Origin: an uncultured Candidatus Saccharibacteria bacterium
Lineage (GTDB): Bacteria; Patescibacteriota; CALEFQ01
DNA length: 64,000 nt
Direction of reading: 5' to 3'
NCBI GenBank assembly: GCA_965230955.1
Contig: OZ246404.1
Location: 988,291-1,052,290, forward strand
Made by a program: the position numbers and the translations under genes. Of the stretch, positions 7,447-60,619 are shown in pieces (position 1 is the stretch's first letter; each line of letters starts with the position of its first letter). The notes below the pieces were generated by a model. That model was not told the origin of the DNA. It was given only the letters and a program-made list of their open reading frames with translations, and ran no database searches.

Positions 7447-7576
7447 ATTTTTTTGATTAATACGCCTTTCTTTTGTTTGGATGCCGAGATTATTATAACA
7501 TAAACCAATTTATTGTAAAAGCGGTCCGCCGGCAGCGGATCGCTGATTGATTCCTGATTTTAGAACCTACTCCAGC

Positions 7577-7987: not shown

Positions 7988-7991
7988 AAAT

Positions 7992-35189: not shown

Positions 35190-35330
35190 CAAGTAACAGG
35201 TATCAGGTAACAAGTATCAGGGAACAAGTAACAAAAAACAACCATTACTCTTAATTTTGCTCATATGTAATGGCTGTTATTCCAATTTGTTCCCTGTTAC
35301 CTGATACCTGTTACTTGTTAATTGATCACC
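35190..35330. repeat. (GTAACAR)n/(GTATCAG)n inverted-repeat element
   Basis: ~45-bp arms around a 50-bp spacer carrying its own CCATTAC/GTAATGG hairpin; lies between convergent gene ends. Confidence 0.8.
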
Positions 35331-38300
35331 AGCCAGTTCACCGGCAAATCGACCGGAGCCGGTTTCCCGTCGTTAGTCGAAATCACAAATCCCTGCCCCG
35401 CCCGTTTCTCTTTTACTTTTACGCCGGTATTGGCGTCATTGGAACTTTCGATCGTCAGGAAAATTCGGCTCGCCGCCGTCACGGAATTATTCGGGACGAA
35501 AATTTCCGACTTGTTGCCGGGGAGTGTCACACTACCAATCGCTTTATTTTCGCCTTCTTGGATTTCGATATCGCCGGCCGTGACTTTCTGGAAGACGGCT
35601 TCACCGAGACTGTCGATATGCCAAGTGGCGTTATTCGACCAAAGTGAAGAAGCTTTGAGCGTGCCGGCGATATCAATATCTCCGCCAATGGTAACTTTAC
35701 CGGTAATACCCAGATCGCCGACGACTTGTCCGGCCTGGAGCGCACCACTTTGACCGGTGCCGGCAGTCAGAGTTTCCAATTGTTTTTTGATATTGGTAAT
35801 CTCTTCGTTCATATCCACGATGGCCGCTTCTTGTTCCTTGGCCGATTGAATCAGCGGAGTGACCAAATTTCCATAAGAAACCGTTTCGGGCCGGCCCTGG
35901 GCGTCATAGCTGACATACGCCGGATTGACTTGTTGGACTTCTTCGGCGATCAGACCTTCCTGCTTGGCGCCGGGATATTTTTTGTATTCAAATGATACCG
36001 GGCGTAATTGATACAGCCAGGCGATATTATTTATATTTTTCACATTGTTCTTGTAGCGCAGGGAAGAAGAAACATAACCGATTGTACCGGCATTATCGAC
36101 ATACAGATCGCGATTGGTCACGCCTACCGTATCGCTGTAAGTCCCGACGGAATTAATAGAATCTACCGTCGCCCCGGCATCGATGTATAGGCCGTATTCG
36201 ATATAGTCTTCCGGATCGAGCCAAGCGACATAATCCGTCCCGCTATTACTGGCTTCATCCACCGCGATCGAAAGTCCCATATCATTACCGGCCGCCGCCG
36301 CATTCACGTCAATCGAGACTCCGTAATCCGCTGCGGCTCCGCCGGTAGTGACCAAGAAAGTACCGCCCGTATTCCCCAACGCCGCGCCGGTCGCCAATCC
36401 CACAACGCCGATATTGTAGCCAAGGCTGGTTTGGTCTACCAACCCGCCGATACCATTGAAATGAACGGTGCTATTGTAAGTGATATTGCCCCCCTGTGTT
36501 CCCACAACGCCATAGAGATCACTATTGCTATAGGAATCCCCGGCGGTTCCCCCCACCCAGCCGTTAACACCGGCGATAAAATTCGTCCCGGAATCTGTCG
36601 TCACCGTCCCTTGATTATAGAAACCAACATTGAGGACATCCATCCCGGCAGTGACATCTTTTAGTGTATAGCCATCTTTGTTGCCCAAAATAAATTTACC
36701 GGCATGATTTTCGGCATAGACGCCATTATAATCAAGTGACGCATCTAATCCGAGATAACCGGACATACCCAAAGCTTCATCAGTATCATACGTAGTATGC
36801 ACTGAAGCCGTCAGCATAGCAGCTTTAACCCCGATAGTTGATTTACCATCATTAGCAGTCCCGGGATTTCCTTGTACGCCTATTTTGTTACCGGTCACTG
36901 CCGACAATACGTCGAAATAACCACCCCAATTTGATCCTGACCCACTTTCAGCTGATCCATAGATAGCAACATTTTGGTTAGTATTATTACTGGCCCGGCC
37001 ATACACACCGGTATTATATCCCGCCGCCCCGGCACCGTTGGAATTTCCGGTTATGCCGGCGATAGTATCGGCAGTCGCCAGAGTACTGGAATTGACCGCG
37101 TAAAGAGCGGACTGATAATCACCGGCATTATAAGTAGATAGAAAATCAAATTGTGCGCCGTATTGTAAATTACTCGCATGGTCATACAAATCCAGCTTAT
37201 AAGAAGGCGTCGTATCACCGATTCCAACATAGCCACCATCAAAGATACCGGCATAATTAGCCGTGCCACCCGAGGCTGTAGCATAAACAGCCGTATTACT
37301 GGTTCCGGCACCAGTAACTGAACTGTAAACACCATATTTGGTACCAGAAGCCCCCGTTTCAGAAATATTGATTCCCCGACCACTCGCACTGGCATCAGCA
37401 ATATTCATGCCATAGGCAGCATTGGCAGCAACACCAAATCCGCCGCGAGTAGCTCGTAAGTAGCCATCAGTGGTCTCGGCTGTGCCCACCCCTAGTCCAC
37501 CGGTCACATACGCATCACCCGAAACATATAATGGATAAGTGGCGTTATGAGCAATATTGACTCCAATATATCTAAAATCAGCGTCGCGGTCAGTATATAT
37601 AGTCGCCACGCCCCCCATGAACAAAGTATTAACGATATTCACATTACCACTGTCGAAATACCCGGCCCAGTTGGTCGTCCCGCCGGAAGCGGTGCCGTAG
37701 ATTCCATAATTTGTGGCATTCCCCGTGCCCGAACCATATACACCATAACTGGCGACAGAAGAGCGACTGGTCGCTCCATAAACACCATACTGGGTCGCCG
37801 CCCGATCAATTGAGGCATAAAGGCCATAATTAACTGTCGCCGAGCCCGGAACCGAAAGATAAATACCATAATTAGTCCCGGTCGCGCCGGTTTGTTCGAT
37901 ATTGATTCCGCGCCCGTCGGCACTGGCCTCGGCCACATTTATACCATAAGCGGCATTAGCGGCCACGCCAATCCCGGCTCGGCTCGCCCGCAAGTAACCA
38001 TCAGTAGCTTCAGCGGTGCCGACACCAAGCCCGCCGACAATAAAAGCATCGCCATCGGCATAAATTGATTGGGTCGTCCCGCCGATCACATATAGGCCGT
38101 ATTCGGCATTGGCTCCCGCCTGGAAAAATCCGGCATAATCGGTACCGGCGGCACCCGTGACATTAAAACGCCCGCCGTAATTGCTCCCCGTGGCGCCGGA
38201 AGACACACCGTAAACACCGTAGTTTTCCGTGCCGGTATTCGATGCTGTTCCGTAGACTCCATAATTATCCGTCGCAGCGGCTCCGGCGACGGAGAAATAT

Positions 38301-41300
38301 CCGCCGTAATTTGTACCGGCCGCTCCGGTGATCACTGACGCCAGGATGCCGTAATCATCTCCGCTACCGCCGGCATTGAGCTCGAAATATCCGCCGTAGT
38401 TGGCGTCAGTATTGCCGGCATTATCGATGTAGCCAAAAACACCGTAGTCGCTACTGTCGCCGGCCACCCCGATGATACTGAAATACCCGCCATAGTTACC
38501 TGAAACTGACGTGCCGGGATCGTTCAATAACGCATAGACGCCATAATCATTCAATGTTCCTCCGCCATCGACAGTAAATCGACCGCCCGAATTTGAATTC
38601 GCTCCTTGCGCCGCCCCCGCCACTCCGACCGATTCATCCCCGCCGTTTGGCAAAGCCACGTTTCCATAAATACCATAGGCGGTGAGACTTTGTCCGTTGG
38701 CGTTAAAAGTATTCGTCGCGTAGATCGAGTAATTGATAGAGGCTTCAAAAGCACCGGTACCACTGAAAGAATTATAGAAACCGTATTGACTGACTTCATG
38801 TGATCCGGAAACCGTTGTCGCCATATACATACCGCGCGCGCCATTGACCGTCGCTCCCAAGGTCGCTTCTCCGTGAAAAGCTTCGTTGTAATTGGTCGCC
38901 CCGCTCGCCGAAGCGTAAATAGCATAATTATTATAAGTATTGGTCGATCCGTCCGCCACGGAATAAATCCCATACGCCGTCGGGACAGCAGTGCCATCGG
39001 CACCGGTAGTTCTATTTCGAACATACAAACCAGTCGTCGTCGCCGTGGCTCCACTCGCGACACTTCCGCCGAAAGAATCGTAAATTCCGTATTGAGTCAA
39101 TCCGTTATTAATTCCATCGTTGGAAGTGGTACTGAAATAATAGCCTTGGACATCACCCAATGTCGCCGACAGCGCGGCGCTTCCGTGGAAAGCTTCATTA
39201 ATTCCGGCGGTACTCCCGGAAACAGTCGTGTGAATCCCGTAATTAGCCGTACCGTTGCCGCTGACTGTAAATTGCCCGCCATAATTATATACGGCATTCG
39301 CCACCACGGCGTTAACACCGTAATTAGTCGACTCACCGGCAACTGCGTTTGAAATATTTAAATACACGCCATTGTTCACCGTCGATGCGCCGGTCAAACT
39401 GATATAATTACCGTAAATTGTACCCGTCGCCCCGGTCATCGCCGTGTAGACGCCGTAACCGTTGTTCGACGCGTTGGCGATATTGAGCGAGCGTCCCGCC
39501 GTCGGCGTCGTGCCGATACTCATGATCCCGGAAGCGACCGAAACATTGTTAGAGTAAGTAGAATTTGGATAGAGGTAATCGCTCCCGACATCGTCCAGCC
39601 ACAAACCGGTTCCGCCGGAAGCCAGCGAGATCAAAGCGTCTATCACGCCTCGATCCGCCGCTCCAAACGCCGCTTCAAACGCCGCGGTGTTGTCGGTCAG
39701 GGCAAACGGAATCGCGGTCGTGATTAGCGCGTCTTGGAAATATATTTTGTCGGTGGAAAGTAATGTTATGTCATTCGTCGCTCCGGTGGAGCCGATAGTC
39801 AGTCCCGCCGTGGCGGTGATATTTGTCCCGACGCCGGTGATATTTTGTGAACCCATGGTCAAGGCGGCGTTGGTAATATCGAGACCGTTTTCCGCGTCAA
39901 CATTGCCGGTGAAATTCGCCGTGCCGTCAACGTACAATTCATCGCTCGTCGCTCCGCTGGCGATATAGACGCCGTATGTCGTACCGGAGAAATATCCGCC
40001 GTAATTTGTCGTCGCGCCGCTCGCCGTCGAATACAAACCGTAGTTCGTCGTCGACGCGCCCGTCGCTTCCAGGTACCCGCCATAATTGGCGTCACCTGTT
40101 CCGGTCACGCTCAGCACTCCGCCGTAATTAGTACCGGTGCCGGCATTATTGTTTCGAACTCTTATGCCCCAATCCACTCCCGCTGTACCGGTTCCAATAC
40201 TGACATCTAATCCGGTATTTGTATCACTTCCACTTCCGTCAGTCAGAAAAACAGTGGCTCCGTAATTATTACCACCGCCGGCTGTAGAAATACCCAAGAT
40301 AGCTCCATAATCATCGCCAGCATTACCGACCTGGACGCGTCCGTAAATTCCGACATCACTGCCGGCGCCGCCCGTCCCAACATCAAAGTAACCGGCATAA
40401 TTAGACGTAGCTCCAGTGGCCACTATATATGATCCGTAATTAGTGGTAGCTGCGCCGGACACGCTCACTTCCATGCCATAATTTGTCGTCGACGCGCCGG
40501 TGGCTGAAATATATTGACCATGAATTGTACCAGTCGCTCCGGTCATTGCCGTGTAGACGCCGTAACCGTTGTTCGACGCGTTGGCGATATTGAGCGAGCG
40601 TCCCGCCGTCGGCGTCGTGCCGATACTCATGATCCCGGAAGCGACCGAAACATTGTTAGAGTAAGTAGAATTTGGATAGAGGTAATCGCTCCCGACATCG
40701 TCCAGCCACAAACCGGTTCCGCCGGAAGCCAGCGAGATCAAAGCGTCTATCACGCCTCGATCCGCCGCTCCAAACGCCGCTTCAAACGCCGCGGTGTTGT
40801 CGGTCAGGGCAAACGGAATCGCGGTCGTGATTAGCGCGTCTTGGAAATATATTTTGTCGGTGGAAAGTAATGTTATGTCATTCGTCGCTCCGGTGGAGCC
40901 GATAGTCAGTCCCGCCGTGGCGGTGATATTTGTCCCGACGCCGGTGATATTTTGTGAACCCATGGTCAAGGCGGCGTTGGTAATATCGAGACCGTTTTCC
41001 GCGTCAACATTGCCGGTGAAATTCGCCGTGCCGTCAACGTACAATTCATCGCTCGTCGCTCCGCTGGCGATATAGACGCCGTATGTCGTACCGGAGAAAT
41101 ATCCGCCGTAATTTGTCGTCGCGCCGCTCGCCGTCGAATACAAACCGTAGTTCGTCGTCGACGCGCCACTGACTGAAATATAATTTCCATAAATAGTTCC
41201 GACCGTCCCGGTCATCGCCGTATAGACACCGTAACCGTTGTCGGCCGCGTTGGCGATATTGAGAGAGCGAGCACTGCTCGGCGCCACGCCGATTCCCACC

Positions 41301-42619
41301 ACCCCGCCGTTGGCATAAATATTTCCGCCGGTAAATTCCCAGCGGTCATCGGTGGTATAAGTGACTGATCCGGTCGCATCATTGGAGGCATACATATTGA
41401 GGATCGCATTGGTCGCCGCGCCGGCCGAGCCCTCACCGATCCGCACCGTGTTTAAATTTTCATCAACGGAAAAAGGCGCGACCAAACTATTCGCGCCGAT
41501 AGCAAAATCATCGGTCAGGGTATAGGGATGAATAATTATCCCCGTTTGCTCCCAGAGAAAAGGCTGATAAGAAATATCCGTGCCGTCGGACATCAAAACG
41601 GTATTGGCTAATCCGGCGCCGAGCCGGGTCGTGGTATTGGCGGCATTGCGGTAAATAATATCGCCGCGGGTTGTCATCGGATCCAGGAAACCGGAACTTT
41701 GGTTTTGCCAAGTGACATTGCCGCTGCCGTCGGTAATCAAAATCTGATTATTCGATCCCCGGGTGGTGGGAAAAGTATACGACGTCACACCAGTGCCAAA
41801 AGTGACTGCCCCAATCAAGTTTGTCGTATTGGAAACCGAAAGCGTGCTGGATAAATCAGTCGCGCCGGTCACGCCCAGGGTTGAAGACAAGGTAGCCGCT
41901 CCGGTCACGATGAGAGTGGAAGATAACGTGGTCGCGCCGGTAACGCCCAAAGTGGAGTCGAATGAAACCGCCCCGCTGACATGTAATCTCCCGTTCGGGA
42001 TCGAGACATCTTGCGATACCCCGGCTTTGGGATGTAAATTTCCGCTGCTATCTTCCCACATCCCGGCCGCCGGTATCGCCGTAGTATTTAAATAATTTAG
42101 CGCGTCGAGAATACCTCTTTCCGCCACCGGGAAAGAATCAATATTCGTATCAGTCAACGAGCCCGGCACGCCATAGACTCTTTCGGTATTCAGCGAATAA
42201 CCAACTCCGCCGATCCGACGCCGAGGCGACATTTCACCGTCGCCATTTACTTCGATCCCCAGATAATATACTCCGCTGTTGAAATCCAGATTGATCGCAT
42301 TGAGTGAGCCGAGATTAACATTGAAAACTCCGTCTTCCACCGTCACTTTGTTTCCGCCGATGTGATTCTCCGACCACATGGCTACCCCGCCTGAAGAAAC
42401 GTTGTAAATCCGAAAATTCATGTCATATACCCCATCGGTAACATTGGTACCGTCGGGATTGGTCAGCCGCCCCTGGAAATTAAACTCTTTAACATAGCCG
42501 GCGCGGACGTTTACCGGGGTATCAAAAAAGCCTACCAGTGAAAAAATCACCGCCAGAATAGCTAAAACTAGGGCTATAACGCCAAAAACTTGGCTTTTTG
42601 CCTTTTTTGTTTGAGCCAT
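35318..42619 (-). CDS. giant (2433 aa) membrane-anchored Thr/Ser/Gly/Asn/Tyr-rich surface protein with C-terminal tail-fibre-type intramolecular chaperone (peptidase S74) domain
   Basis: N-terminal signal-anchor helix; long NYGGYF/GATGT-type low-complexity beta repeats; C-terminus SSSLRYKNNVKNI...WLYQLRPVSFEYK...GLIAEEVQQVNPAYV matches the endosialidase/tail-fibre auto-cleaving chaperone domain. Confidence 0.7.
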   Translation of the reverse strand: MAQTKKAKSQVFGVIALVLAILAVIFSLVGFFDTPVNVRAGYVKEFNFQGRLTNPDGTNVTDGVYDMNFRIYNVSSGGVAMWSENHIGGNKVTVEDGVFNVNLGSLNAINLDFNSGVYYLGIEVNGDGEMSPRRRIGGVGYSLNTERVYGVPGSLTDTNIDSFPVAERGILDALNYLNTTAIPAAGMWEDSSGNLHPKAGVSQDVSIPNGRLHVSGAVSFDSTLGVTGATTLSSTLIVTGAATLSSTLGVTGATDLSSTLSVSNTTNLIGAVTFGTGVTSYTFPTTRGSNNQILITDGSGNVTWQNQSSGFLDPMTTRGDIIYRNAANTTTRLGAGLANTVLMSDGTDISYQPFLWEQTGIIIHPYTLTDDFAIGANSLVAPFSVDENLNTVRIGEGSAGAATNAILNMYASNDATGSVTYTTDDRWEFTGGNIYANGGVVGIGVAPSSARSLNIANAADNGYGVYTAMTGTVGTIYGNYISVSGASTTNYGLYSTASGATTNYGGYFSGTTYGVYIASGATSDELYVDGTANFTGNVDAENGLDITNAALTMGSQNITGVGTNITATAGLTIGSTGATNDITLLSTDKIYFQDALITTAIPFALTDNTAAFEAAFGAADRGVIDALISLASGGTGLWLDDVGSDYLYPNSTYSNNVSVASGIMSIGTTPTAGRSLNIANASNNGYGVYTAMTGATGTIHGQYISATGASTTNYGMEVSVSGAATTNYGSYIVATGATSNYAGYFDVGTGGAGSDVGIYGRVQVGNAGDDYGAILGISTAGGGNNYGATVFLTDGSGSDTNTGLDVSIGTGTAGVDWGIRVRNNNAGTGTNYGGVLSVTGTGDANYGGYLEATGASTTNYGLYSTASGATTNYGGYFSGTTYGVYIASGATSDELYVDGTANFTGNVDAENGLDITNAALTMGSQNITGVGTNITATAGLTIGSTGATNDITLLSTDKIYFQDALITTAIPFALTDNTAAFEAAFGAADRGVIDALISLASGGTGLWLDDVGSDYLYPNSTYSNNVSVASGIMSIGTTPTAGRSLNIANASNNGYGVYTAMTGATGTIYGNYISLTGASTVNNGVYLNISNAVAGESTNYGVNAVVANAVYNYGGQFTVSGNGTANYGIHTTVSGSTAGINEAFHGSAALSATLGDVQGYYFSTTSNDGINNGLTQYGIYDSFGGSVASGATATTTGLYVRNRTTGADGTAVPTAYGIYSVADGSTNTYNNYAIYASASGATNYNEAFHGEATLGATVNGARGMYMATTVSGSHEVSQYGFYNSFSGTGAFEASINYSIYATNTFNANGQSLTAYGIYGNVALPNGGDESVGVAGAAQGANSNSGGRFTVDGGGTLNDYGVYALLNDPGTSVSGNYGGYFSIIGVAGDSSDYGVFGYIDNAGNTDANYGGYFELNAGGSGDDYGILASVITGAAGTNYGGYFSVAGAAATDNYGVYGTASNTGTENYGVYGVSSGATGSNYGGRFNVTGAAGTDYAGFFQAGANAEYGLYVIGGTTQSIYADGDAFIVGGLGVGTAEATDGYLRASRAGIGVAANAAYGINVAEASADGRGINIEQTGATGTNYGIYLSVPGSATVNYGLYASIDRAATQYGVYGATSRSSVASYGVYGSGTGNATNYGIYGTASGGTTNWAGYFDSGNVNIVNTLFMGGVATIYTDRDADFRYIGVNIAHNATYPLYVSGDAYVTGGLGVGTAETTDGYLRATRGGFGVAANAAYGMNIADASASGRGINISETGASGTKYGVYSSVTGAGTSNTAVYATASGGTANYAGIFDGGYVGIGDTTPSYKLDLYDHASNLQYGAQFDFLSTYNAGDYQSALYAVNSSTLATADTIAGITGNSNGAGAAGYNTGVYGRASNNTNQNVAIYGSAESGSGSNWGGYFDVLSAVTGNKIGVQGNPGTANDGKSTIGVKAAMLTASVHTTYDTDEALGMSGYLGLDASLDYNGVYAENHAGKFILGNKDGYTLKDVTAGMDVLNVGFYNQGTVTTDSGTNFIAGVNGWVGGTAGDSYSNSDLYGVVGTQGGNITYNSTVHFNGIGGLVDQTSLGYNIGVVGLATGAALGNTGGTFLVTTGGAAADYGVSIDVNAAAAGNDMGLSIAVDEASNSGTDYVAWLDPEDYIEYGLYIDAGATVDSINSVGTYSDTVGVTNRDLYVDNAGTIGYVSSSLRYKNNVKNINNIAWLYQLRPVSFEYKKYPGAKQEGLIAEEVQQVNPAYVSYDAQGRPETVSYGNLVTPLIQSAKEQEAAIVDMNEEITNIKKQLETLTAGTGQSGALQAGQVVGDLGITGKVTIGGDIDIAGTLKASSLWSNNATWHIDSLGEAVFQKVTAGDIEIQEGENKAIGSVTLPGNKSEIFVPNNSVTAASRIFLTIESSNDANTGVKVKEKRAGQGFVISTNDGKPAPVDLPVNWLVIN
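39441..40060. repeat. perfect 620-bp direct repeat, copy 1 (inside the giant gene)
   Basis: Identical to 40548..41167 (offset 1107 bp); the tracked ORFs 39687..39968 and 40794..41075 are identical 93-aa products. Confidence 0.9.
40548..41167. repeat. perfect 620-bp direct repeat, copy 2
   Basis: See copy 1; flanks diverge at 39434/40541 and 40061/41168. Confidence 0.9.
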
Positions 42620-54272: not shown

Positions 54273-56306
54273 ATGCCCATAAGCAATCGAGCCTTATCGA
54301 TCGCGGGAATCGTATGTTTTTTGATATTTTTTTTCCTCTTTCCCTTAGTACGAGCCGACGAGGAGCCGGTTACCCAGCCCCATGTTGTCCGAGTGGGTAT
54401 TTATGACAATAAACCTAAAATCTATCGCGATGATGACGGTCAAGTAAAAGGATTTTTCGCCGACATCTTGAATTATACCGCCGCCCAAGAAGGTTGGAAA
54501 ATAGACTATATCGACGGCACTTGGGATGAAGGCTTGGAGCGTCTGAAAAATAATGAAATCGATATCATGGTCGATGTCGCCTTGTCGGAAGAACGACAGC
54601 AAGTCTATGATTTTAACAATGAAACAGCTCTCTTTGCTTGGGGAGTCATCTATACCCGCCCGGGAGTGAAAATCGAAAAAATCAACGACCTGGAAGGAAA
54701 AAACATTGCTGTGATGAAAAGCGGCATTCTTTTTACCGGACCCTGGGGTATCGAAAATCTTTTGAATTCTTTTCAGATCAAATCCAATTACACGGATGTC
54801 AAAGTCTATGGTGATGTTTTTAAATTATTAGACCAAGGCGAGGCGGATGCGGGAGTAGTCAATACCTTTTACGGATTCGCCAATCAAAAAGATTATAAAG
54901 TAGTTCGAACCAATATCGTCTTTAATCCCAGCGAACTGCGCTTCGCCTTAACTAAAAACGCCCCGGCTAACCCGTACTTGATAGAAAAATTGGATGCTAA
55001 TCTTCAAAAGCAGAAAGCGGACAACAACAGCGCCTACCAAAAGAATATGCAAGCTTTCCTGACTGAAATGGAAGCATCGCAAGAAGTGGAAGTCTTTCCG
55101 GTCTGGGCTCAAATGACGCTAATCATCAGCGGAATCGGTATCGCGGCATTGCTGGTGATTTATTTTATCGCATTGCGCTATCGAGTAAAACTGGAAAAAA
55201 CAGTCCGAGCCAGAACGGCGGAATTGAAAAGATCGGAAGAAAAATATCGCACGACAATCGAGCGCGCCAATGACGGCGTGGCTATTATCCAAGATCAAAT
55301 AATAAAATACGGCAACGCGGCTCTGGCCAGTATCAGAGGCGAACCGCTGGAAAAAATCATCGGGCAAAACTTCACAAAATTTGTGGATAAAGAATCCTTG
55401 CCGAAAGTGGTTGATTTCTATAAACGACGCCTGCGCAATGAAAAAATACCGACTGAGTATGAAACGGTTTTAAGAAACGTGGCCGGCGACAAAATCTATG
55501 TCGAAGTGAATACCGGCCTGGCCGATTATGAGGGCCGGCTGGCTGATGTCGTTATGGTCCACGATATCACCGAGCGTAAAAAATCAGAGGCCAAAGTCAA
55601 AGAACTTAACGAGCTCCGCAAAAAATTCGTCCAAATCGTTTCGCATCAGCTTCGAACCCCCCTAACCTCCATTCGTTGGAATACCGAAGCCTTGCTCAGC
55701 GGCGATATGGGAAAAATGGAGCCGGCCCAGGAACAAATATTGCGCTCGACCAACCGCGCCGAAGCGACTGTTATAAATCGCCTGGGAGATCTCCTGACGG
55801 TGATGGAAATCGAAGAAGGCCGGGAGAATCTGTCCAAAGAAACGGCCTCGATTGAAAGCCTGTGGGGTTCGGTGATCAAAGACGTGAAAAAGAAATGCCA
55901 GGCCAAAAACCTTCGGTTTATCTATCATTCACCGGATAAATTATTACCCAAAGTATCAATCGACTTGGAAAAAATGAGAGTGGTTTTCTGGCAGTTGATG
56001 AGTAATGCCCTGGATTATACTCGGCCGGGAGGAAAAATAGAGACAAGATTTATCAACCGGCGCGGCCGAATACGCTTTGAAGTCTCGGATAACGGTATCG
56101 GTATTCCGGAAGTGGAACAACCGCGAATTTTTGAGAAATTTTTCCGAGCCAGCAACGCAGCCGCGATGGAGACAGATCGTTCGGGCATCGGATTGTCAAT
56201 TGCAAAATTCTACATCGAAGAACACGGCGGAAAAATTGGCTTCTCGAGCGAAGAAAGCAAAGGCAGTACTTTTTGGTTTGAAATTCCCGCAAGTTCCGGA
56301 GATTAA
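54273..56306 (+). CDS. sensor histidine kinase with periplasmic solute-binding (SBP_bac_3-like) domain and PAS domain
   Basis: Signal peptide/TM; family-3 SBP-like domain; TM; PAS; H-box KFVQIVSHQLRTPLTSIRW; HATPase_c (DNGIGI, GIGLSIAKFYIEEHGG). Confidence 0.8.
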   Translation: MPISNRALSIAGIVCFLIFFFLFPLVRADEEPVTQPHVVRVGIYDNKPKIYRDDDGQVKGFFADILNYTAAQEGWKIDYIDGTWDEGLERLKNNEIDIMVDVALSEERQQVYDFNNETALFAWGVIYTRPGVKIEKINDLEGKNIAVMKSGILFTGPWGIENLLNSFQIKSNYTDVKVYGDVFKLLDQGEADAGVVNTFYGFANQKDYKVVRTNIVFNPSELRFALTKNAPANPYLIEKLDANLQKQKADNNSAYQKNMQAFLTEMEASQEVEVFPVWAQMTLIISGIGIAALLVIYFIALRYRVKLEKTVRARTAELKRSEEKYRTTIERANDGVAIIQDQIIKYGNAALASIRGEPLEKIIGQNFTKFVDKESLPKVVDFYKRRLRNEKIPTEYETVLRNVAGDKIYVEVNTGLADYEGRLADVVMVHDITERKKSEAKVKELNELRKKFVQIVSHQLRTPLTSIRWNTEALLSGDMGKMEPAQEQILRSTNRAEATVINRLGDLLTVMEIEEGRENLSKETASIESLWGSVIKDVKKKCQAKNLRFIYHSPDKLLPKVSIDLEKMRVVFWQLMSNALDYTRPGGKIETRFINRRGRIRFEVSDNGIGIPEVEQPRIFEKFFRASNAAAMETDRSGIGLSIAKFYIEEHGGKIGFSSEESKGSTFWFEIPASSGD

Positions 56307-56388
56307 AATTTATTTTTTGCCCAAACGCCGGCGATGCTTACCGGCGTTTTTTTGCCCAAAAGCCCGAAAATTATGGTAAAATAAAGAT

Positions 56389-59325
56389 ATGATTCAAATT
56401 TTAGAATTATTGCTATTTATCGGCCTTTTTTATTTTTACGGCTCGGTTCCCTTTGCCTTGATTTTTACATATTTCACCAGACGAAGAGATCTCAGGGAAT
56501 TCGGGACAGGAAATATCGGCGTGGCGAACGCCTTCGCGGCCGGCGGAATGATCGCCGGAATCGGCGCCGTGATAGGCGAAATTTCCAAAGCGGCTCTGCC
56601 AATCGCCGCCAGTTATCTGTTTTTTCAGGATAATCCCTGGGTAACAGTAATCCTGGTTTTGGCCGCTATCTTTGGCACCACCTTTTCCCTTTTCCTAAAA
56701 GGAAAAGGTGGACTCGGCAACACCATTTTCATGTGGTGTATTTTAATTTTGGTGCCGATTCCGGCGATTTTGGCCGGCACCTTGAGTTTTTTGGTTTCTA
56801 TTTTGATTCGGAAAAGTTATCCGGCCACTATTTTTACCAGGATGGTCATACTGCCGACGGCGTTATATTTTTTGACTTTTGACTGGCCCGTGACCGGACT
56901 CGCTCTCGCTTCCGGACTTGTTTTCACCCTGCGCTACAAAAAGGAAAAAGACGATTTTACCGCCCAGAATATGGGAAAAAAGATAAAGGCCTTCTTTTCC
57001 CGGAATAAATACCTGCTCCCGCTTCAAAAAGTCAGAAATTCTAATCTGTTGGGCGGTAAAGCCGGCAACCTGCGGTGGCTCAGCAAGTTCGGCTGGCGCA
57101 TACCGACCACTTACATCGTGCCGGCCCAAGTCCTGGCCAACGCCCTGGCCGATGAAAAAATTTCCGTCGCGCTAAAAGAAGAAATCATCAAAACGCTTGC
57201 CAATGGAAAAAAATACGCTGTGCGCTCTTCCGCCAATGTCGAAGATTTTTCGGAGCATTCTTTCGCCGGACAATTTCAAACCGATTTGAACGTGAAAAAG
57301 GAAAACATCTACTCCAGCCTGCTGGCGGTCCGGCAATCCGCCCGGCAAGAAAACGTCAAAATGTACCAGCAACAAGTTGCGCGGGAAACACCGGAAATAA
57401 AAATGAACGTCATCATCCAAGAAATGATCACGCCGATTTATTCGGGAGTGATTTTCACTCGGAGCCCCATAACCGGCCTGGATGAAGTATTGATTGAAAC
57501 CGTCCCGGGAACAGCCGCCAAGCTGGTGCAGGGACAAGCCACGCCCCAGAGCTGGATATATAAATGGGGACAATTCACGGAAAAGCCGGCACATCCGGAA
57601 TTCGACAACCAGGAAAAAATCATCGCCCGTCTGGCGCAGGATTGTAAAGTGATTGAAAGACAATATCGCGCCCCGGTTGATATCGAATGGGCTTATGACG
57701 GTCGGGATCTATATTGGATTCAATTACGGCCGATCACCGCCATCAAAGGAATAAATATTTATTCCAATAAGATATCGCGGGAATTCTTGCCCGGTTTAAT
57801 CAAGCCCTTGGTCTGGTCAATCAATATTCCGTTGGTCAACGGCGGATGGAAAAATCTGTTTATGGAAATACTCGGCGCCGATGCCAAAAATATTGAAGTG
57901 GCGGATTTGGCCAAATCATTTTACCACCGGGCTTATTTCAATATGGGTATTGTCGGCGATCTGCTGGAACTTTTCGGCATGCGCCGCGAGACCCTCGAAT
58001 TGCTGCTGGGTTTGGAAAAAACCGGCCGCCAAAAACCGAAATTTATCCCGGGTTTTCGAATTGTCAGATATTTGCCGAGCGGCCTGCGGTTTTTCATATC
58101 TACTTTCAGCGGCTATCGCCGAAAAATCGATCGATTAATCCAGTTCGCTCAAAACAAATATACCGAATATCGATTTACCGCGCCGGGAAGATTATCGGAA
58201 ACCGAGATCGTGGCCAAGATAGAAGAGGCCCTGGCTCTCAATGAAAAACTGGTTTATTTCAATATTTTGACTCCCCTGCTCATGTCTTTTCGCATGAACA
58301 GTTTGCGAAATTATTTGGCCGACCAAAATGTTTCGGAAGACGATCTGGCCGATTATTTCCGGAAAGACCCGGATACCGATCCGGCATGGCATTTGGCGGT
58401 ATTGCACCAGGAATACCAAAGGTGGCGAAAAACCAATCCCCAAACCTCGCCCCCGATGCTGGAAGCTTTTTTAGCGAACTCGCCGGAACAAGCGACCTTT
58501 CGCCGGTTATTTGGAAACTTTATCGAAAAATTCGGACATATCGGCCAAAGTAATAATGATTTTTCTCTACCGACTTGGAAAGAAAATCCCGAAATTGTTT
58601 GGGATATGATCAGAAACTATCGCCCGCCGCGGGCGAAAAAAAATTCGGCGGAAAATAAAATCGAAAAAATTTCCGAGAAATATCTTTTTCGCAACGCGGA
58701 TCTGGGCCGAATCATGAAACAACGGGTAAGTTTTTACTACACCAAGTGTTATTTCCTTTTCCGCCCGTATTTTTTGGAACTGGGACGCTTACTCGGCGAA
58801 CGACAAGCCCTGGAGAAGCCCGATGATATTTTTTTCCTGACTTATCCGGAAATAAAAGAAATAGTCTCGGGCAGAAAAAGCGATCTGGCAAAAATCGCGA
58901 CCCGACGCAGTAACTATCAAACCGATTCCGAAATTACCGCCCAAATACCGGAAACTATTTTCGGCGATAACCCGCCGGTTTTGACCAAACCAGTCAGTCA
59001 AAAGACTTATTCCGGCTTACCGGCTTCCAAAGGATACTATGAGGGGCGGATCAGAAAAGTCGCTTCTTGGGCTGATCAAAAGAAAATCCAGCCCGGTGAA
59101 GTTGTCGTTCTGGGTCACACCGACGTCGGCCTGAACATGATCTGCACTCGAGGCAAAGCCTTGGTCACTTCCAGCGGCGGCATCCTTTCTCACTGCGCGA
59201 TCATCGCCCGAGAGTATCGCATCCCGGCGGTGGTCTCCGTCAAAGAGGCCGATCAGCTCGCCGATGGTCAAATGGTGGCCGTTGACGGAAATTTGGGGAA
59301 AATAGAAGTATTGACCCAAAAGTAA
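56389..59325 (+). CDS. fusion protein: PlsY-like acyl-phosphate:glycerol-3-phosphate acyltransferase membrane domain plus PEP-synthase-like dikinase module (PPDK_N ATP-grasp plus phosphohistidine swivel domain)
   Basis: N-terminal ~200 aa with PlsY motifs (RRRDLREFGTGNIGVANAF resembling GSGNPGATNV; FLKGKGGLGNT); middle LLGGKAGNLRWLSKFGWRIPTTYIV resembles the PPDK_N start; C-terminal GGILSHCAIIAREYRIPAVV is a PEP-utilising mobile domain with catalytic His; no TIM-barrel PEP-binding domain. Confidence 0.6.
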   Translation: MIQILELLLFIGLFYFYGSVPFALIFTYFTRRRDLREFGTGNIGVANAFAAGGMIAGIGAVIGEISKAALPIAASYLFFQDNPWVTVILVLAAIFGTTFSLFLKGKGGLGNTIFMWCILILVPIPAILAGTLSFLVSILIRKSYPATIFTRMVILPTALYFLTFDWPVTGLALASGLVFTLRYKKEKDDFTAQNMGKKIKAFFSRNKYLLPLQKVRNSNLLGGKAGNLRWLSKFGWRIPTTYIVPAQVLANALADEKISVALKEEIIKTLANGKKYAVRSSANVEDFSEHSFAGQFQTDLNVKKENIYSSLLAVRQSARQENVKMYQQQVARETPEIKMNVIIQEMITPIYSGVIFTRSPITGLDEVLIETVPGTAAKLVQGQATPQSWIYKWGQFTEKPAHPEFDNQEKIIARLAQDCKVIERQYRAPVDIEWAYDGRDLYWIQLRPITAIKGINIYSNKISREFLPGLIKPLVWSINIPLVNGGWKNLFMEILGADAKNIEVADLAKSFYHRAYFNMGIVGDLLELFGMRRETLELLLGLEKTGRQKPKFIPGFRIVRYLPSGLRFFISTFSGYRRKIDRLIQFAQNKYTEYRFTAPGRLSETEIVAKIEEALALNEKLVYFNILTPLLMSFRMNSLRNYLADQNVSEDDLADYFRKDPDTDPAWHLAVLHQEYQRWRKTNPQTSPPMLEAFLANSPEQATFRRLFGNFIEKFGHIGQSNNDFSLPTWKENPEIVWDMIRNYRPPRAKKNSAENKIEKISEKYLFRNADLGRIMKQRVSFYYTKCYFLFRPYFLELGRLLGERQALEKPDDIFFLTYPEIKEIVSGRKSDLAKIATRRSNYQTDSEITAQIPETIFGDNPPVLTKPVSQKTYSGLPASKGYYEGRIRKVASWADQKKIQPGEVVVLGHTDVGLNMICTRGKALVTSSGGILSHCAIIAREYRIPAVVSVKEADQLADGQMVAVDGNLGKIEVLTQK

Positions 59326-59389: not shown

Positions 59390-60619
59390 TTATTCGGCCG
59401 AGGGAGACGCTTCGATCCGTTCTTTTATGGCCCGAATGACAATCGGATCATCCCCCCAGGCACCGAGATTGATAACCTCCACGCCGGCAGGAATGTTCGC
59501 TTCATGAACCAAGGTGGGTATATCGTACTGGCTGTGCATGGAATCGGCGCTGATCGCCGAGGCAAAGAAGAAGATTTTTTTCACTCCCTGGTTGATTAAT
59601 TGCTCAACTTTTTCTTTAGGTTTCGGCTCTTTGAAATCCATCCAAGCCTGGCTCAGATTTTCCGGCAAATACCCATCCGCTTCAAAGAGCTTAATAATCT
59701 CTTCGCGAAAACTGGTTTCCTGCTCGGTTTCCGTCGGCCATTCAACATCCCATTCGTCCGGTTGTCCGTGACCGACCAACAAGACCGCGATTTTATCCTT
59801 GGGCGTATCGCCTCGATTGGCATTTACCCGAGAAACAAACATACTGCGCAAAGTTTCCGAGTTCCAGAGCGGCTGAACATAGACTATTTCAACTTGATAT
59901 TTATCAAGCTCCAGCTCTTTTATCTGTTTGACTCCTTCGGCCGTGTGATTGGAATTGGTCAAGAATACTTCGCTCACGATAATCTTACTGGCCCCTTCAT
60001 TGAGAGCTTGAATAACCGCCGCGTCCGGCCGAGGCTCATCATCAAGAAAACTCAAATAAAATTTCGTCGTTTGATCACCGTCGGCTCGATAAGCTTCTTC
60101 CAGACTTTTAATCATATTTTTGTGACCCTGCCGGTGATTACTCTGCCCCACTTTTACATAATGGTCCCGCAACTGGTAGAAAAATATCGGCCGAACCAAG
60201 AATGGTATAAAAGATATTTTTTGCTCATCAAATTCATTGAATTGGTTTATCCAGCCGATCGGATTATAGTTTTCCGGCTCGCCGTGAGTAAAATAAACAA
60301 CCGCCGTATGCCCGTCACCGGGATCGCTGGGAGACCGGGTCAAAGTCGGGACGGCTCGATTATCAACGGTGTTCAAAATAATCTGCGTCATCGTAGCGTA
60401 CCCGCCGATGAAAAAGACCGCAACCAGAATAATAACCAAAGCCAGCCATTTACCCCGAAACCCGGTAACCACGAGAAAAACACAGGCCAGGGCGGAAATC
60501 AGAAAAAAAGACAGATAAACGGCCATTTGATTGATCGGGCAAGACATGTATCTGACCAGTAAATATCCGGCGACAAATGCCAGGGCGATGACTGACAGCC
60601 AAAGAATGATTTTTTTCAT
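59390..60619 (-). CDS. membrane-anchored class II chelatase-like protein (ferrochelatase/CbiX-like fold)
   Basis: Three N-terminal TM helices, then a two-lobed ~330-aa domain with VVYFTHGEP and LLVGHGQPDEWD resembling ferrochelatase N- and C-lobe motifs, including a conserved His. Confidence 0.45.
   Translation of the reverse strand: MKKIILWLSVIALAFVAGYLLVRYMSCPINQMAVYLSFFLISALACVFLVVTGFRGKWLALVIILVAVFFIGGYATMTQIILNTVDNRAVPTLTRSPSDPGDGHTAVVYFTHGEPENYNPIGWINQFNEFDEQKISFIPFLVRPIFFYQLRDHYVKVGQSNHRQGHKNMIKSLEEAYRADGDQTTKFYLSFLDDEPRPDAAVIQALNEGASKIIVSEVFLTNSNHTAEGVKQIKELELDKYQVEIVYVQPLWNSETLRSMFVSRVNANRGDTPKDKIAVLLVGHGQPDEWDVEWPTETEQETSFREEIIKLFEADGYLPENLSQAWMDFKEPKPKEKVEQLINQGVKKIFFFASAISADSMHSQYDIPTLVHEANIPAGVEVINLGAWGDDPIVIRAIKERIEASPSAE

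What the first reader, a model, noticed from the sequence alone, without database searches (positions are those of the whole stretch)
56389..59325. PlsY-like acyltransferase fused to a PEP-synthase-like dikinase module (possible self-contained acyl-phosphate generating lipid-synthesis enzyme)
The first ~200 aa have the PlsY motifs (GTGNIGVANAF resembling GSGNPGATNV; KGKGGLGNT). The remainder has the PPDK_N ATP-grasp start (LLGGKAGNLRWL...) and a C-terminal phosphohistidine swivel domain (GGILSHCAIIAREYRIPAVV) but no PEP/pyruvate TIM-barrel, which is the architecture of rifampicin-phosphotransferase-type dikinases. PlsY needs acyl-phosphate, normally supplied by PlsX or the fatty-acid kinase FakAB. 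An ATP-dependent dikinase fused to PlsY could phosphorylate scavenged fatty acids or another lipid head group directly. That would fit an organism without its own fatty-acid synthesis. I know of no described fusion of this kind.
Basis: partly seen in the sequence, partly recalled or inferred. Interest (0 to 1): 0.7.

Follow-up and report, generated by a model that had tools for sequence, protein, structure and literature searches.

The report
PlsY-like membrane domain fused to dikinase
A real, conserved gene in a tiny-genome (CPR) bacterium joins a membrane domain resembling the lipid enzyme PlsY to an ATP-driven kinase of the rifampin-phosphotransferase type. The PlsY-like part has lost the residues needed for normal lipid synthesis, and the gene travels with light-stress and pigment-handling genes, so it is probably an undescribed membrane enzyme rather than a lipid-synthesis shortcut.

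Summary
Window 56389-59325 (+) is one 978-aa ORF with PF02660 (PlsY), PF01326 (ATP-grasp) and PF00391 (swivel His domain), and no PEP/pyruvate barrel. It is not a frameshift artefact: 58 fused and 23 split-but-adjacent versions occur in CPR, Asgard, Bathyarchaeia, Thermotogae, Chloroflexota, Planctomycetes and others at 35-40% identity.

The C-part is an Rph-class small-molecule dikinase with an invariant His935. The N-part has the PlsY fold and Gly-rich loops but lacks the acyl-phosphate ligands (His92->Thr, Thr41->Ala) and the G3P clamp (Arg45, Lys104, His177, Asn180). It scores below the PlsY equivalog cut-off. Ordinary PlsY genes found in the same scan keep every one of these residues.

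No phospholipid genes are nearby. Recurrent neighbours are a membrane-anchored ferrochelatase/CbiX-like protein (adjacent in the window), photolyase, heliorhodopsin, Staygreen, MsrA/B and DUF1295/DUF2177.

A second dikinase->PlsY-like pair sits in MacB ABC operons. It includes the 'PlsY' of Thorarchaeota SMTZ1-83, a MAG whose PlsY is cited in the lipid-divide literature.

Best reading: an undescribed two-part membrane enzyme that phosphorylates a hydrophobic membrane compound. The substrate is unknown.

The parts
56389..59325 (+). Whole fusion gene (978 aa plus stop codon)
   Evidence: Single ORF; three Pfam domains; identical protein P0001 on independent contigs
56389..56973 (+). PlsY-fold 7-TM domain (aa 1-195), non-canonical subfamily
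   Evidence: PF02660 E 9e-22; TIGR00023 62.5 bits, below the 137.2 cut-off; profile hit to 5xj5 E 5.5e-13; Foldseek TM 0.73-0.75 to PlsY; residue audit
56503..56529 (+). Motif-1 Gly loop GTGNIGVAN (aa 39-47). Asn42 and Asn47 are invariant; Ser35->Thr40; Thr41->Ala46
   Evidence: Alignments A1/A2; ungapped match to Aquifex GSGNVGATN
56698..56724 (+). Motif-2 'phosphate hole' loop KGKGGLGNT (aa 104-112). Gly107, Gly108 and Gly110 are kept; Lys104 of Aquifex PlsY is Leu109 here
56974..57033 (+). Flexible linker between the membrane domain and the dikinase (aa 196-215)
   Evidence: pLDDT below 50 at aa 196-204; this is the point where the gene is split into two genes in other genomes
57034..57756 (+). 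ATP-grasp nucleotide-binding domain (aa 216-456)
   Evidence: PF01326; matches the Rph ATP-binding domain 5hv6 and HpeI 9goj
57757..58983 (+). Central helical domain equivalent to the substrate-binding domain of Rph (aa 457-865), highly conserved
   Evidence: Precomputed PF27448 Rph_4th; Foldseek alignment to Rph over about 900 columns; many invariant residues
58984..59322 (+). Swivelling phosphohistidine domain (aa 866-978)
   Evidence: PF00391 E 1.2e-15; 80.9-bit local match to the Rph C-terminus
59191..59193 (+). Codon of His935, the predicted phospho-carrier in T927-S-S-G-G-I-L-S-H935
   Evidence: Invariant in 76 sequences; fits the T/S-x-x-G-G-x-x-x-H motif of small-molecule dikinases (PMC12167813)
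59390..60619 (-). Convergent neighbour: class-II chelatase-like protein (ferrochelatase/CbiX) with three N-terminal TM helices; the most frequent conserved partner of the module
   Evidence: PF01903 and PF00762. Homologues 45-70% identical lie beside the PlsY-like gene in L030, L010, L012, L080, L084, L060, L061, L068 and L085; L033 carries a separate PF00762 gene. Commonest family in the neighbour census, 7 hits
56325..56353 (+). Hairpin ACGCCGG-9 nt-CCGGCGT followed by T7, just after the stop of the upstream histidine-kinase gene; suggests the fusion is its own transcription unit
   Evidence: Read directly from the sequence; the automatic scan missed it because the loop exceeds 8 nt. Inference only
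56374..56382 (+). TGgTAAAAT extended -10-like element 7 nt upstream of the ATG (possibly a leaderless or short-leader transcript)
   Evidence: Read directly from the sequence. Inference only

Best explanation
What it is: the fused form of a conserved two-part membrane enzyme. Part one is an Rph-class, ATP-dependent small-molecule dikinase made of an ATP-grasp domain, a central substrate domain and a swivelling His935 domain. Part two is a 7-TM domain with the PlsY fold that has been re-purposed.

Proposed mechanism: ATP pyrophosphorylates His935 at the ATP-grasp site. The gamma-phosphate goes to water. The swivel domain then carries the beta-phosphate to an oxygen nucleophile of a hydrophobic compound that resides in the membrane. 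The PlsY-like domain holds or receives this compound in its hydrophobic groove and Gly-loop 'phosphate hole'. The net reaction is R-OH + ATP + H2O -> R-O-P + AMP + Pi at the cytoplasmic face of the membrane.

What it is not: the housekeeping glycerol-3-phosphate acyltransferase.

Biological setting: the module is an accessory, horizontally mobile unit that travels with light, photo-oxidative-stress and tetrapyrrole-handling genes. The likeliest substrate class is therefore a membrane-bound pigment, tetrapyrrole-derived compound or isoprenoid alcohol.

Shown versus inferred: the architecture, catalytic His, fold, loss of the PlsY substrate residues, conserved pairing and gene context are shown. 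The substrate, the hand-over between the two parts and the physiological role are inferred.
For: Dikinase class: best matches are Rph by sequence (E 2e-38) and by fold over the full length (E 7e-33). The TIM barrel is absent. His935 and the GG-x-x-SH motif are invariant. Characterised relatives (RPH, HpeHI, CreHI, PpsAB) phosphorylate hydroxyl groups of hydrophobic or aromatic molecules (PMC12167813).

A functional pair: 58 fused and 23 adjacent split versions, the split form in at least 7 different MAG lineages. A second subfamily has the reversed gene order, dikinase->PlsY-like.

More than an anchor: Asn42, Asn47, Glu64, Lys67, Ser100, Gly107 and Thr112 are invariant, all in the loops that form the PlsY active site.

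Not canonical PlsY: residue audit with a built-in positive control; equivalog score not reached.

Topology: in the Aquifex PlsY structure the protein has 7 TM helices and the active site opens to the cytoplasm (PMC5700162). That its C-terminus is cytoplasmic, which would fit a C-terminal cytoplasmic dikinase, is my own recollection and is not in the passages read.

Context: 23 of 34 de-replicated groups with flanks have at least one light/tetrapyrrole gene within 8 kb: photolyase 8, ferrochelatase-like 8, heliorhodopsin 6, Staygreen 4, Fpg 4, plus Msr, TudS-DUF1722, DUF1295 and DUF2177. This compares with 0 of 10 ordinary PlsY loci. The carriers are mostly under 60% identical to each other. 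Key loci are L115, L116 and L118.
Against: - No substrate has been identified and there is no experiment.
- The 'theme' gene list was defined post hoc from the same loci, so the Fisher p of 1.4e-4 is only indicative.
- Many loci come from similar sediment metagenomes.
- In the window itself only the chelatase-like gene belongs to the theme.
- The central Rph-like domain is itself a complete substrate-binding domain in Rph, so the PlsY-like domain may not be the substrate site.
- Asn42, the equivalent of the proposed oxyanion-stabilising Asn37 of PlsY, is invariant. That would fit retained acyl-transfer chemistry rather than simple binding.
- The inter-domain geometry of the model could not be inspected.
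Confidence: 0.5

Rival explanations
1. Activation-and-transfer enzyme with a non-G3P acceptor. The dikinase phosphorylates a carboxylate, either a free fatty acid or a tetrapyrrole propionate, to give an acyl-phosphate. The PlsY-like domain then transfers that acyl group to a hydrophobic alcohol such as phytol or another lipid alcohol, releasing Pi. This would be an ATP-driven ester synthase in the membrane.
For: PlsY-fold chemistry is acyl-phosphate + alcohol -> ester + Pi (PMC5700162). The Gly-rich phosphate-hole loop and the Asn37 equivalent (Asn42) are conserved. Loss of the G3P phosphate clamp is what one would expect if the acceptor carries no phosphate. Staygreen, alpha/beta-hydrolase and chelatase-like neighbours suggest chlorophyll- or porphyrin-derived carboxylates and phytol. 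From my own knowledge, phosphohistidine can phosphorylate carboxylates, as in succinyl-CoA synthetase.
Against: No characterised Rph-class dikinase phosphorylates a carboxylate; the known ones act on hydroxyl groups. Thr41 and His92, which bind the acyl-phosphate carbonyl and phosphate in PlsY, are both replaced in this subfamily.
Confidence: 0.2
2. Xenobiotic or antibiotic-inactivating kinase, as for Rph. The dikinase phosphorylates a hydrophobic toxin, and the PlsY-like domain serves mainly as a membrane anchor or entry portal. The type-ii pairs couple this step to MacB-type efflux.
For: Rph is the closest solved relative. The distribution is patchy and looks like horizontal transfer. The type-ii pairs lie inside ABC/MacB-FtsX operons. 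Neighbours include Vgb lyase, beta-lactamase, GNAT and MFS genes.
Against: Polar residues in the PlsY active-site loops are invariant, which argues for more than an anchor. The commonest neighbours are photolyase, heliorhodopsin and chelatase genes, not resistance genes. The score is far below the Rph equivalog cut-off, 181 against 999.
Confidence: 0.15
3. One reading: a self-contained lysophosphatidic-acid synthase. The dikinase turns scavenged fatty acids into acyl-phosphate and the PlsY domain acylates glycerol-3-phosphate, replacing PlsX/FakAB in a CPR bacterium that lacks fatty-acid synthesis.
For: PF02660 passes its Pfam cut-off. The host is a CPR bacterium, a group that from my own knowledge generally lacks fatty-acid synthesis. 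No plsX, plsC, fab or fak gene is present in the 64 kb window. The fusion logic is chemically attractive.
Against: Six of the eight substrate-contacting side chains of PlsY are replaced and Ser35 is Thr. In Aquifex PlsY, S35T leaves 17% activity, R45K under 10% and H92A 20%; T41A is described as severe and no residue could replace His177. The PlsY equivalog cut-off is not reached. The same subfamily occurs in ether-lipid archaea and in bacteria expected to have normal PlsX/PlsY. No lipid genes are in its neighbourhoods.
Confidence: 0.08
4. Assembly or frameshift artefact that joins two separate genes.
For: Split two-gene versions exist in other genomes.
Against: The identical ORF is on independent contigs and samples. 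There are 58 fused loci across distant phyla with a continuous alignment through the linker.
Confidence: 0.01

Closest known systems
PlsY, acyl-phosphate:glycerol-3-phosphate acyltransferase (Aquifex aeolicus, PDB 5XJ5-5XJ9; PF02660/TIGR00023)
   Same: Same 7-TM fold (TM 0.73-0.75). Same Gly-rich motif-1 and motif-2 loops. Conserved Asn37, Asn42 and Lys101 equivalents. Active-site cavity expected to face the cytoplasm.
   Different: Replaced: His92, Thr41, Arg45, Lys104, His177 and Asn180; Ser35 is Thr. Below the equivalog cut-off. Always paired or fused with a dikinase. Not found in lipid-gene contexts. Rare and patchy instead of near-universal in bacteria.
Rifampin phosphotransferase RPH (Listeria, PDB 5HV1/5FBS; NF041857)
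   Same: Same three-domain order (ATP-grasp, helical substrate domain, C-terminal swivel His domain) without a TIM barrel. Conserved catalytic His motif. Full-length fold match.
   Different: Only about 20% identity and far below the equivalog score. Has an N-terminal membrane domain that RPH lacks. The substrate is unlikely to be rifampin. The gene context is not antibiotic resistance.
Two-component small-molecule dikinases HpeHI, CreHI and phenylphosphate synthase PpsAB
   Same: Same dikinase superfamily and swivel-His mechanism. They show that the family works as separable components and phosphorylates hydroxyl groups of hydrophobic compounds (PMC12167813).
   Different: [quoted passage not shown] Here the separable partner is a membrane PlsY-fold protein. 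Those enzymes are soluble and catabolic.
PigC/RedH prodigiosin ligases (NF052631/NF052632)
   Same: Same Rph-like architecture; 150-167 bit matches. From my own knowledge they activate a pyrrole aldehyde oxygen by phosphorylation, which is a precedent for pyrrole-type substrates.
   Different: Far below their cut-offs (1300 and 1350). No membrane domain. No prodigiosin genes nearby.
PlsX and fatty-acid kinase FakA/FakB (the normal suppliers of acyl-phosphate to PlsY)
   Same: Functional analogy only: a partner that would generate the phosphate-activated substrate for a PlsY-fold protein.
   Different: No sequence or fold relationship to the dikinase. Neither is found next to this subfamily.
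E. coli Aas (2-acyl-GPE acyltransferase fused to acyl-ACP synthetase; from my own knowledge)
   Same: A precedent for a membrane enzyme that fuses an ATP-dependent activating module to a lipid acyltransferase module.
   Different: Unrelated domains (PlsC-type acyltransferase and an adenylate-forming enzyme). Its substrates are known.

Membership tests
PlsY (G3P acyltransferase) | PF02660 domain and 7-TM PlsY fold | tested here: met
   PF02660 78.3 bits against 24.1; Foldseek TM 0.73-0.75 to 5xj5-5xj8
PlsY (G3P acyltransferase) | Reaches the curated equivalog score (TIGR00023) | tested here: not met
   62.5 bits against a cut-off of 137.2
PlsY (G3P acyltransferase) | G3P phosphate clamp Ser35/Arg45/Lys104/Asn180 and 2-OH ligands Ser142/His177 | tested here: not met
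   In the window protein these are Thr40, Ala50, Leu109, no Asn, and Tyr183. Across 63 fused sequences Arg45 is kept in 5, Lys104 in 7, His177 in 2 and Asn180 in 0. Ordinary PlsY controls keep all of them
PlsY (G3P acyltransferase) | Acyl-phosphate side-chain ligands His92 and Thr41 | tested here: not met
   Thr97 and Ala46 in the window protein. His92 is Thr in 47/63 fused and 23/23 split sequences. Thr41 is Ala or Ile in 61/63 fused sequences
PlsY (G3P acyltransferase) | Gly-rich loop forming the backbone 'phosphate hole', and Asn37 | tested here: met
   K/R-G-G-x-G is conserved and the Asn37 equivalent Asn42 is present in 57/63 sequences
PlsY (G3P acyltransferase) | Acts with PlsX/FakAB and PlsC in phospholipid synthesis | tested here: not met
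   No PlsX, PlsC, CdsA, Fab, ACP, DegV or Dak2 family is among the recurrent neighbours of 40 representative loci, or in the window ORFs annotated, which cover most of the 64 kb. The rest of the genome could not be searched
Rph-class small-molecule dikinase | ATP-grasp + helical substrate domain + C-terminal swivel His domain, with no PEP/pyruvate TIM barrel | tested here: met
   precomputed PF27448 Rph_4th
Rph-class small-molecule dikinase | Catalytic His in the T/S-x-x-G-G-x-x-x-H motif | tested here: met
   T927-SSGGILS-H935; G930, G931, L933, S934 and H935 are invariant in 76 sequences; motif defined in PMC12167813
Rifampin phosphotransferase proper (NF041857) | Equivalog score, implying rifampin as substrate | tested here: not met
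   181.5 bits against a cut-off of 999
PEP synthase / PPDK | C-terminal PEP/pyruvate-binding TIM barrel (PF02896) | tested here: not met
   No such domain at E<=1. All PEP-synthase equivalog scores are far below their cut-offs
Dikinase activity (ATP -> AMP + Pi + phospho-product) | Biochemical stoichiometry and a phospho-His intermediate | not testable with these tools
   Needs an enzyme assay

The most novel reading that the evidence does not exclude
PlsY-fold proteins paired with Rph-like dikinases form an undescribed family of membrane enzymes. They process a light-toxic membrane compound, such as a chlorophyll- or porphyrin-derived tetrapyrrole or its phytol tail, as part of a photo-oxidative-stress response. 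If so, many 'PlsY' genes of Asgard, Bathyarchaeia and other archaea are members of this family and not lipid-synthesis genes. The clearest case is the Thorarchaeota SMTZ1-83 'PlsY', a MAG cited in the lipid-divide debate.
Probability: 0.3. Interest if true: 0.8.

Novelty: new variant of a known kind. Interest (0 to 1): 0.6.

Why it matters
- **Mis-annotation:** automatic annotation calls these proteins 'glycerol-3-phosphate acyltransferase PlsY' or 'pyruvate, water dikinase'. Both names are probably wrong for this family.
- **Lipid-divide debate:** archaeal 'PlsY' homologues have been counted as bacterial-type lipid genes in discussions of the lipid divide and eukaryote origins (PMC6431249, PMC9385802, PMC13400652). 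At least the Thorarchaeota SMTZ1-83 gene, and Promethearchaeota, Heimdallarchaeota and Wukongarchaeum examples, are dikinase-coupled paralogues that lack the G3P-binding residues. This weakens that inference and gives a simple residue and neighbour test to sort such genes.
- **Possible new enzymology:** the conserved pairing with a small-molecule dikinase, a membrane-anchored chelatase-like protein, Staygreen, photolyase and heliorhodopsin points to an unexplored membrane chemistry linked to light or tetrapyrrole stress. It occurs in uncultured archaea, CPR bacteria and Thermotogae.
- **CPR lipid metabolism:** this gene should not be taken as evidence of a lipid-salvage route in CPR bacteria.

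Tried and rejected
**Rejected after testing**
- Frameshift or assembly artefact: rejected by recurrence on independent contigs and 58 fused homologues.
- Canonical PlsY: rejected by the equivalog score and the residue audit, which had an internal positive control.
- Phospholipid-operon context: looked for and not found.
- PEP synthase/PPDK: rejected because there is no TIM barrel.

**Led nowhere**
- Literature searches for PlsY with rifampin phosphotransferase, PEP synthase fusion, or water dikinase with lipid returned nothing relevant.
- Heliorhodopsin-neighbourhood papers and a chlorophyll-degradation preprint do not mention the pair.
- Two context look-ups were wasted because I trimmed the wrong end of minus-strand ORFs.

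**Could not do**
- I could not search the rest of the 1.14-Mb genome for canonical plsY, plsX, plsC, fak or fab genes.
- I could not inspect model coordinates for inter-domain geometry.
- The chelatase-like neighbour matched solved structures only weakly (CbiX-S, E 0.002), so its activity is unknown.


Full report

Window 56389..59325 (+) is one uninterrupted ORF of 978 aa. Pfam finds PF02660 (G3P_acyltransf/PlsY, aa 14-184, E 9e-22), PF01326 (PPDK_N ATP-grasp, E 8e-38) and PF00391 (mobile phosphohistidine domain, aa 900-970, E 1e-15). All three are above their gathering scores, and there is no PEP/pyruvate TIM barrel.

An AlphaFold2 model built on 76 homologues is confident (pLDDT 90.2, pTM 0.73). 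It shows a 7-helix membrane domain, a disordered linker at aa 196-204, and a three-domain dikinase. Foldseek aligns the C-terminal ~770 residues with Listeria rifampin phosphotransferase (E 7e-33, about 900 columns). It aligns the N-domain with Aquifex PlsY at TM 0.73-0.75 normalised to PlsY length.

The fusion is not an artefact. The identical protein occurs on several contigs from at least two samples. A 61%-identical fusion and about 30 more fusion clusters at 35-39% identity exist.

**2. What organism is this?**

The neighbours are bacterial: GreA, BacA, TsaD, a T2SS/T4P ATPase and an M23 peptidase. The rest of the window is housekeeping (PolA, UvrB, RuvA, TruB, RNase III, HolA, a Mur ligase, FemAB) plus several PAS histidine kinases. 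Every named close relative of its UvrB (60-72% identity) is from Patescibacteria/CPR, and the source contig is 1.14 Mb. The annotated ORFs, which cover most of the 64 kb, include no plsX, plsC, fab, fak or second PF02660 gene. The rest of the genome could not be examined.

**3. Is the N-domain a PlsY?**

It belongs to the PlsY fold family but is not an equivalent of PlsY. The curated equivalog model TIGR00023 gives 62.5 bits against a cut-off of 137.2.

The Aquifex PlsY structure paper (PMC5700162) defines the functional side chains:
- **Acyl-phosphate binding:** His92 binds the phosphate and Thr41 the carbonyl. Backbone amides of residues 104-107 form the 'phosphate hole'.
- **Catalysis:** Asn37 is proposed to stabilise the oxyanion.
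- **G3P binding:** Ser35, Arg45, Lys104 and Asn180 clamp the phosphate. Ser142 and His177 hold the 2-OH.

An HMM alignment of the fusion N-domains to chain 5xj5 is ungapped through motifs 1 and 2. In the window protein it gives:

| Aquifex PlsY | Window protein |
|---|---|
| Ser35 | Thr40 |
| Asn37 | Asn42 (kept) |
| Thr41 | Ala46 |
| Arg45 | Ala50 |
| His92 | Thr97 |
| Lys101 | Lys106 (kept) |
| Lys104 | Leu109 |
| His177 | Tyr183 |
| Asn180 | no Asn |

PF02660 genes with no dikinase nearby (Atribacterota, Spirochaetales, Alphaproteobacteria) carry the complete Aquifex signature S-N-x-N-R-H-K-G-G-K-G-S-H-N. This serves as an internal positive control for the alignment. In contrast, among the dikinase-linked sequences:
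- His92 is Thr in 47/63 fused and 23/23 split sequences.
- Thr41 is Ala or Ile in 61/63 fused sequences.
- His177 is Tyr, Phe, Thr or Ser.
- Asn180 is never kept.
- Arg45 and Lys104 are mostly lost in fused forms and kept in about half of the split forms.

In Aquifex PlsY these substitutions are individually crippling. S35T leaves 17% activity, R45K under 10% and H92A 20%. T41A is described as severe, and no residue could replace His177.

What is conserved is the pair of Gly-rich loops plus family-specific invariant polar residues: Asn42, Asn47, Glu64, Lys67, Ser100 and Thr112. So the pocket is under selection but has been re-tooled.

**4. What is the C-part?**

By sequence and fold it is an Rph-class small-molecule dikinase, with the precomputed Pfam family 'Rph_4th'. 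It scores far below every equivalog cut-off: Rph 181 against 999, PigC 167 against 1300, and PEP synthases about 200 against 850-970. The swivel motif T927-SSGGILS-H935 is invariant in 76 sequences and fits the T/S-x-x-G-G-x-x-x-H motif described for this family (PMC12167813). Characterised members (RPH, HpeHI, CreHI, PpsAB) use ATP -> AMP + Pi to phosphorylate hydroxyl groups of hydrophobic or aromatic molecules.

**5. Are the two parts a unit?**

A genome scan and a metagenome scan with the N-domain profile gave 114 loci. Of these, 58 are fused and 23 have the PlsY-like gene immediately upstream of, often overlapping, a separate dikinase gene. Most of the rest are cut by contig ends.

By MAG label, carriers include Asgard archaea (Wukongarchaeum, Promethearchaeati, Heimdallarchaeota), Bathyarchaeia, Methanomassiliicoccales, Dehalococcoidia, Thermotogaceae, Kosmotogaceae, Actinomycetota, Thermodesulfobacteriota, Pirellulales and Alphaproteobacteria.

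The subfamily is small. In an exhaustive search of 1.84 billion representatives, about 35 clusters score better than roughly 1e-16 before the list merges into ordinary ~200-aa PlsY.

A second arrangement also exists. The closest unfused ~780-aa dikinases are followed by a different non-canonical PF02660 gene inside ABC-ATPase/MacB-FtsX operons, in Thorarchaeota, Promethearchaeota and Chloroflexota. Fusion, conserved adjacency in both gene orders, and two independent subfamilies together make a functional partnership very likely.

**6. What does the neighbourhood say?**

Clustering and an unbiased Pfam census of 231 neighbour genes from 40 de-replicated loci found no phospholipid genes among the recurrent families. 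A targeted census counted the following within 8 kb, out of 34 groups with at least 2 kb of flank:

| Neighbour | Groups |
|---|---|
| Photolyase (two classes) | 8 |
| Membrane-anchored ferrochelatase/CbiX-like protein | 8 |
| Heliorhodopsin | 6 |
| Second PF02660 paralogue | 6 |
| Staygreen (Mg-dechelatase family) | 4 |
| Fpg | 4 |
| Rieske/VanA oxygenase | 4 |
| MsrB, TudS-DUF1722, PNPOx-like, nitroreductase | 3 each |
| MsrA, DUF1295 | 2 each |

In total 23 of 34 groups have at least one such gene. None of 10 ordinary PlsY loci (about 165 kb) has any (Fisher p 1.4e-4). The carriers are mostly 30-60% identical to each other, so this is not a single conserved syntenic block.

Individual loci show the pattern clearly:
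- **L115** is a co-directional run: STAS, FAD amine-oxidase-type oxidoreductase, SDR, DUF1295, DUF2177, MsrA, Rieske, Staygreen, the fusion, then an O-methyltransferase. A photolyase and a PNPOx-like gene lie alongside.
- **L116** has SOD, Hsp20, Usp, DJ-1, a response regulator and a histidine kinase, then the fusion, a desulfoferrodoxin fragment and a heliorhodopsin.
- **L118** (type-ii) combines DUF2177, Staygreen, an alpha/beta-hydrolase, P450 fragments, MFS, PNPOx and a dikinase.

Photolyase, SDR and DUF2177 are published typical heliorhodopsin neighbours (PMC11109279).

In the window itself the theme is represented by the chelatase-like gene at 59390-60619 (-), convergent and 65 bp away. 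Homologues 45-70% identical sit next to the PlsY-like gene in Actinomycetota, Chloroflexia and several metagenomic lineages. In some of these they directly follow a stand-alone PlsY-like gene with no dikinase in between.

Caveats: the theme list was assembled post hoc, and sediment metagenomes dominate the sample.

**7. Mechanism**

- **Shown:** the architecture, catalytic His, PlsY fold, loss of the PlsY substrate residues, obligate pairing and gene context.
- **From established knowledge:** the dikinase cycle runs ATP -> His-PP -> His-P -> acceptor. In the Aquifex structure PlsY has 7 TM helices and its active site opens to the cytoplasm (PMC5700162). From my own recollection its C-terminus is cytoplasmic, so the dikinase would sit on the cytoplasmic face.
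- **Inferred (confidence about 0.5 for the general model):** phospho-His935 phosphorylates an oxygen on a hydrophobic, membrane-resident compound. The PlsY-like domain binds or receives this compound in its groove and phosphate hole.
- **Substrate (speculative):** the context suggests a tetrapyrrole-derived compound, pigment or isoprenoid alcohol such as phytol.

The rivals are listed with their confidences in the rival section.

**8. Comparison with known systems and novelty**

The protein works like an Rph-class dikinase, but it is neither Rph nor a PEP synthase. It has the PlsY fold, but it fails four defining tests for PlsY. No paper in the searchable library describes the pairing. Source databases auto-name such proteins 'PlsY/phosphohistidine swiveling domain-containing protein' or 'pyruvate, water dikinase'. 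I rate it a new variant of known kinds: a new, conserved combination of two known families with unknown chemistry.

**9. Wider relevance**

Coleman et al. 2019 (PMC6431249) list PlsY orthologues in Lokiarchaeum GC14_75, Heimdallarchaeota LC_2 and Thorarchaeota SMTZ1-83. A 2022 review says their function 'remains to be elucidated' (PMC9385802). A 2026 paper still calls Asgard plsY and plsC 'most striking' (PMC13400652).

The NCBI protein 'glycerol-3-phosphate acyltransferase [Candidatus Thorarchaeota archaeon SMTZ1-83]' (P0388) is identical to the L031 gene. That gene follows an Rph-like dikinase by 3 bp in a MacB operon and has the non-canonical signature A-I-N-A-M-H-Q-G-G-R-G-Y-T-E. I did not verify that this is the exact protein Coleman et al. 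used, and I could not test the Lokiarchaeum and LC_2 genes.

**10. Verdict**

The feature is real and conserved, and the architecture was read correctly. The proposed lipid-synthesis function is unlikely. The gene belongs to an undescribed dikinase/PlsY-fold membrane module linked to light and tetrapyrrole stress genes. Interest 0.6.

Noticed in passing
window 59390-60619 (-): A class-II chelatase-like protein (ferrochelatase/CbiX Pfam hits) with three N-terminal TM helices, in a CPR genome that from my own knowledge should lack tetrapyrrole synthesis. Homologues 45-70% identical sit beside non-canonical PlsY-like genes in Actinomycetota, Chloroflexia and several metagenomic lineages. Its activity (chelatase, dechelatase or binding protein) and membrane orientation are unknown.
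   Followed up: partly
L031:6036-11156, L032:4348-12443, L117:1-4785: A second conserved operon type, ABC ATPase / MacB-FtsX permease / Rph-like dikinase / non-canonical PF02660 protein, in Thorarchaeota, Chloroflexota (Leptofilum) and Promethearchaeota. About 110 clusters of this PF02660 subfamily exist, and all named ones are auto-named PlsY.
   Followed up: partly
L115:484-13689: A gene cluster resembling bacterial light / singlet-oxygen regulons: photolyase, PNPOx, STAS, FAD amine-oxidase-type, SDR, DUF1295, DUF2177, MsrA, Rieske and Staygreen, ending in the fusion and an O-methyltransferase.
   Followed up: partly
L116:11750-12523; also L038:4082-4903, L047:18317-19138, L094:2683-3447: Heliorhodopsin genes lie within a few kb of the PlsY-like/dikinase module in 6 de-replicated groups. 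Since heliorhodopsins are reported to regulate neighbouring enzymes, the membrane PlsY-like domain could be a heliorhodopsin partner.
   Followed up: no
L045:6322-7320 (-); homologues in L003, L043, L047, L048, L053: A ~333-aa protein with a signal-like N-terminus and several C-terminal TM helices, with no Pfam match, recurs next to the module in 4 groups.
   Followed up: no
L005:6166-9243 (-) and L005:9989-10618 (+): One Bathyarchaeia contig carries both a full fusion and a divergently transcribed stand-alone PlsY-like gene of the same subfamily, next to a photolyase. L006 and L010 carry an extra PF02660 paralogue of the type-ii signature beside the module.
   Followed up: partly
L060:1310-3337, L068:528-2548, L085:919-2963: A stand-alone non-canonical PlsY-like gene is directly followed by the TM chelatase-like gene, with no dikinase visible on the contig. 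This suggests that the PlsY-like/chelatase link can exist without an adjacent dikinase.
   Followed up: no
window 557-11213 (-): Four consecutive large sensor proteins: a CHASE4 protein, a 7TM-receptor protein with PAS domains, and two PAS/GAF histidine kinases. A further SBP_bac_3-type histidine kinase sits directly upstream of the fusion (54273-56306). This is an unusually rich signalling set for a CPR genome.
   Followed up: no
window 35318-42619 (-): A 2433-aa ORF that I did not annotate, flanked by a TPR protein and a CarboxypepD_reg/SdrD-like protein; probably a giant surface protein.
   Followed up: no
window 13935-14972 (+): An LPG_synthase_TM (MprF-type flippase-like) membrane protein. 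It is the only other lipid-related family seen in the window.
   Followed up: no
window 56325-56382 (+): A terminator-like hairpin plus T7 after the upstream kinase gene, and a TGgTAAAAT element 7 nt before the fusion's ATG. Together they hint at a separate, possibly leaderless, transcript.
   Followed up: partly
L118:1635-2986 and 5206-5358: On this 1.1-Mb contig the P450 gene is split in two and the ABC ATPase is a 50-aa fragment. These are likely frameshift errors or pseudogenes, so the gene calls in that locus should be read with care.
   Followed up: no
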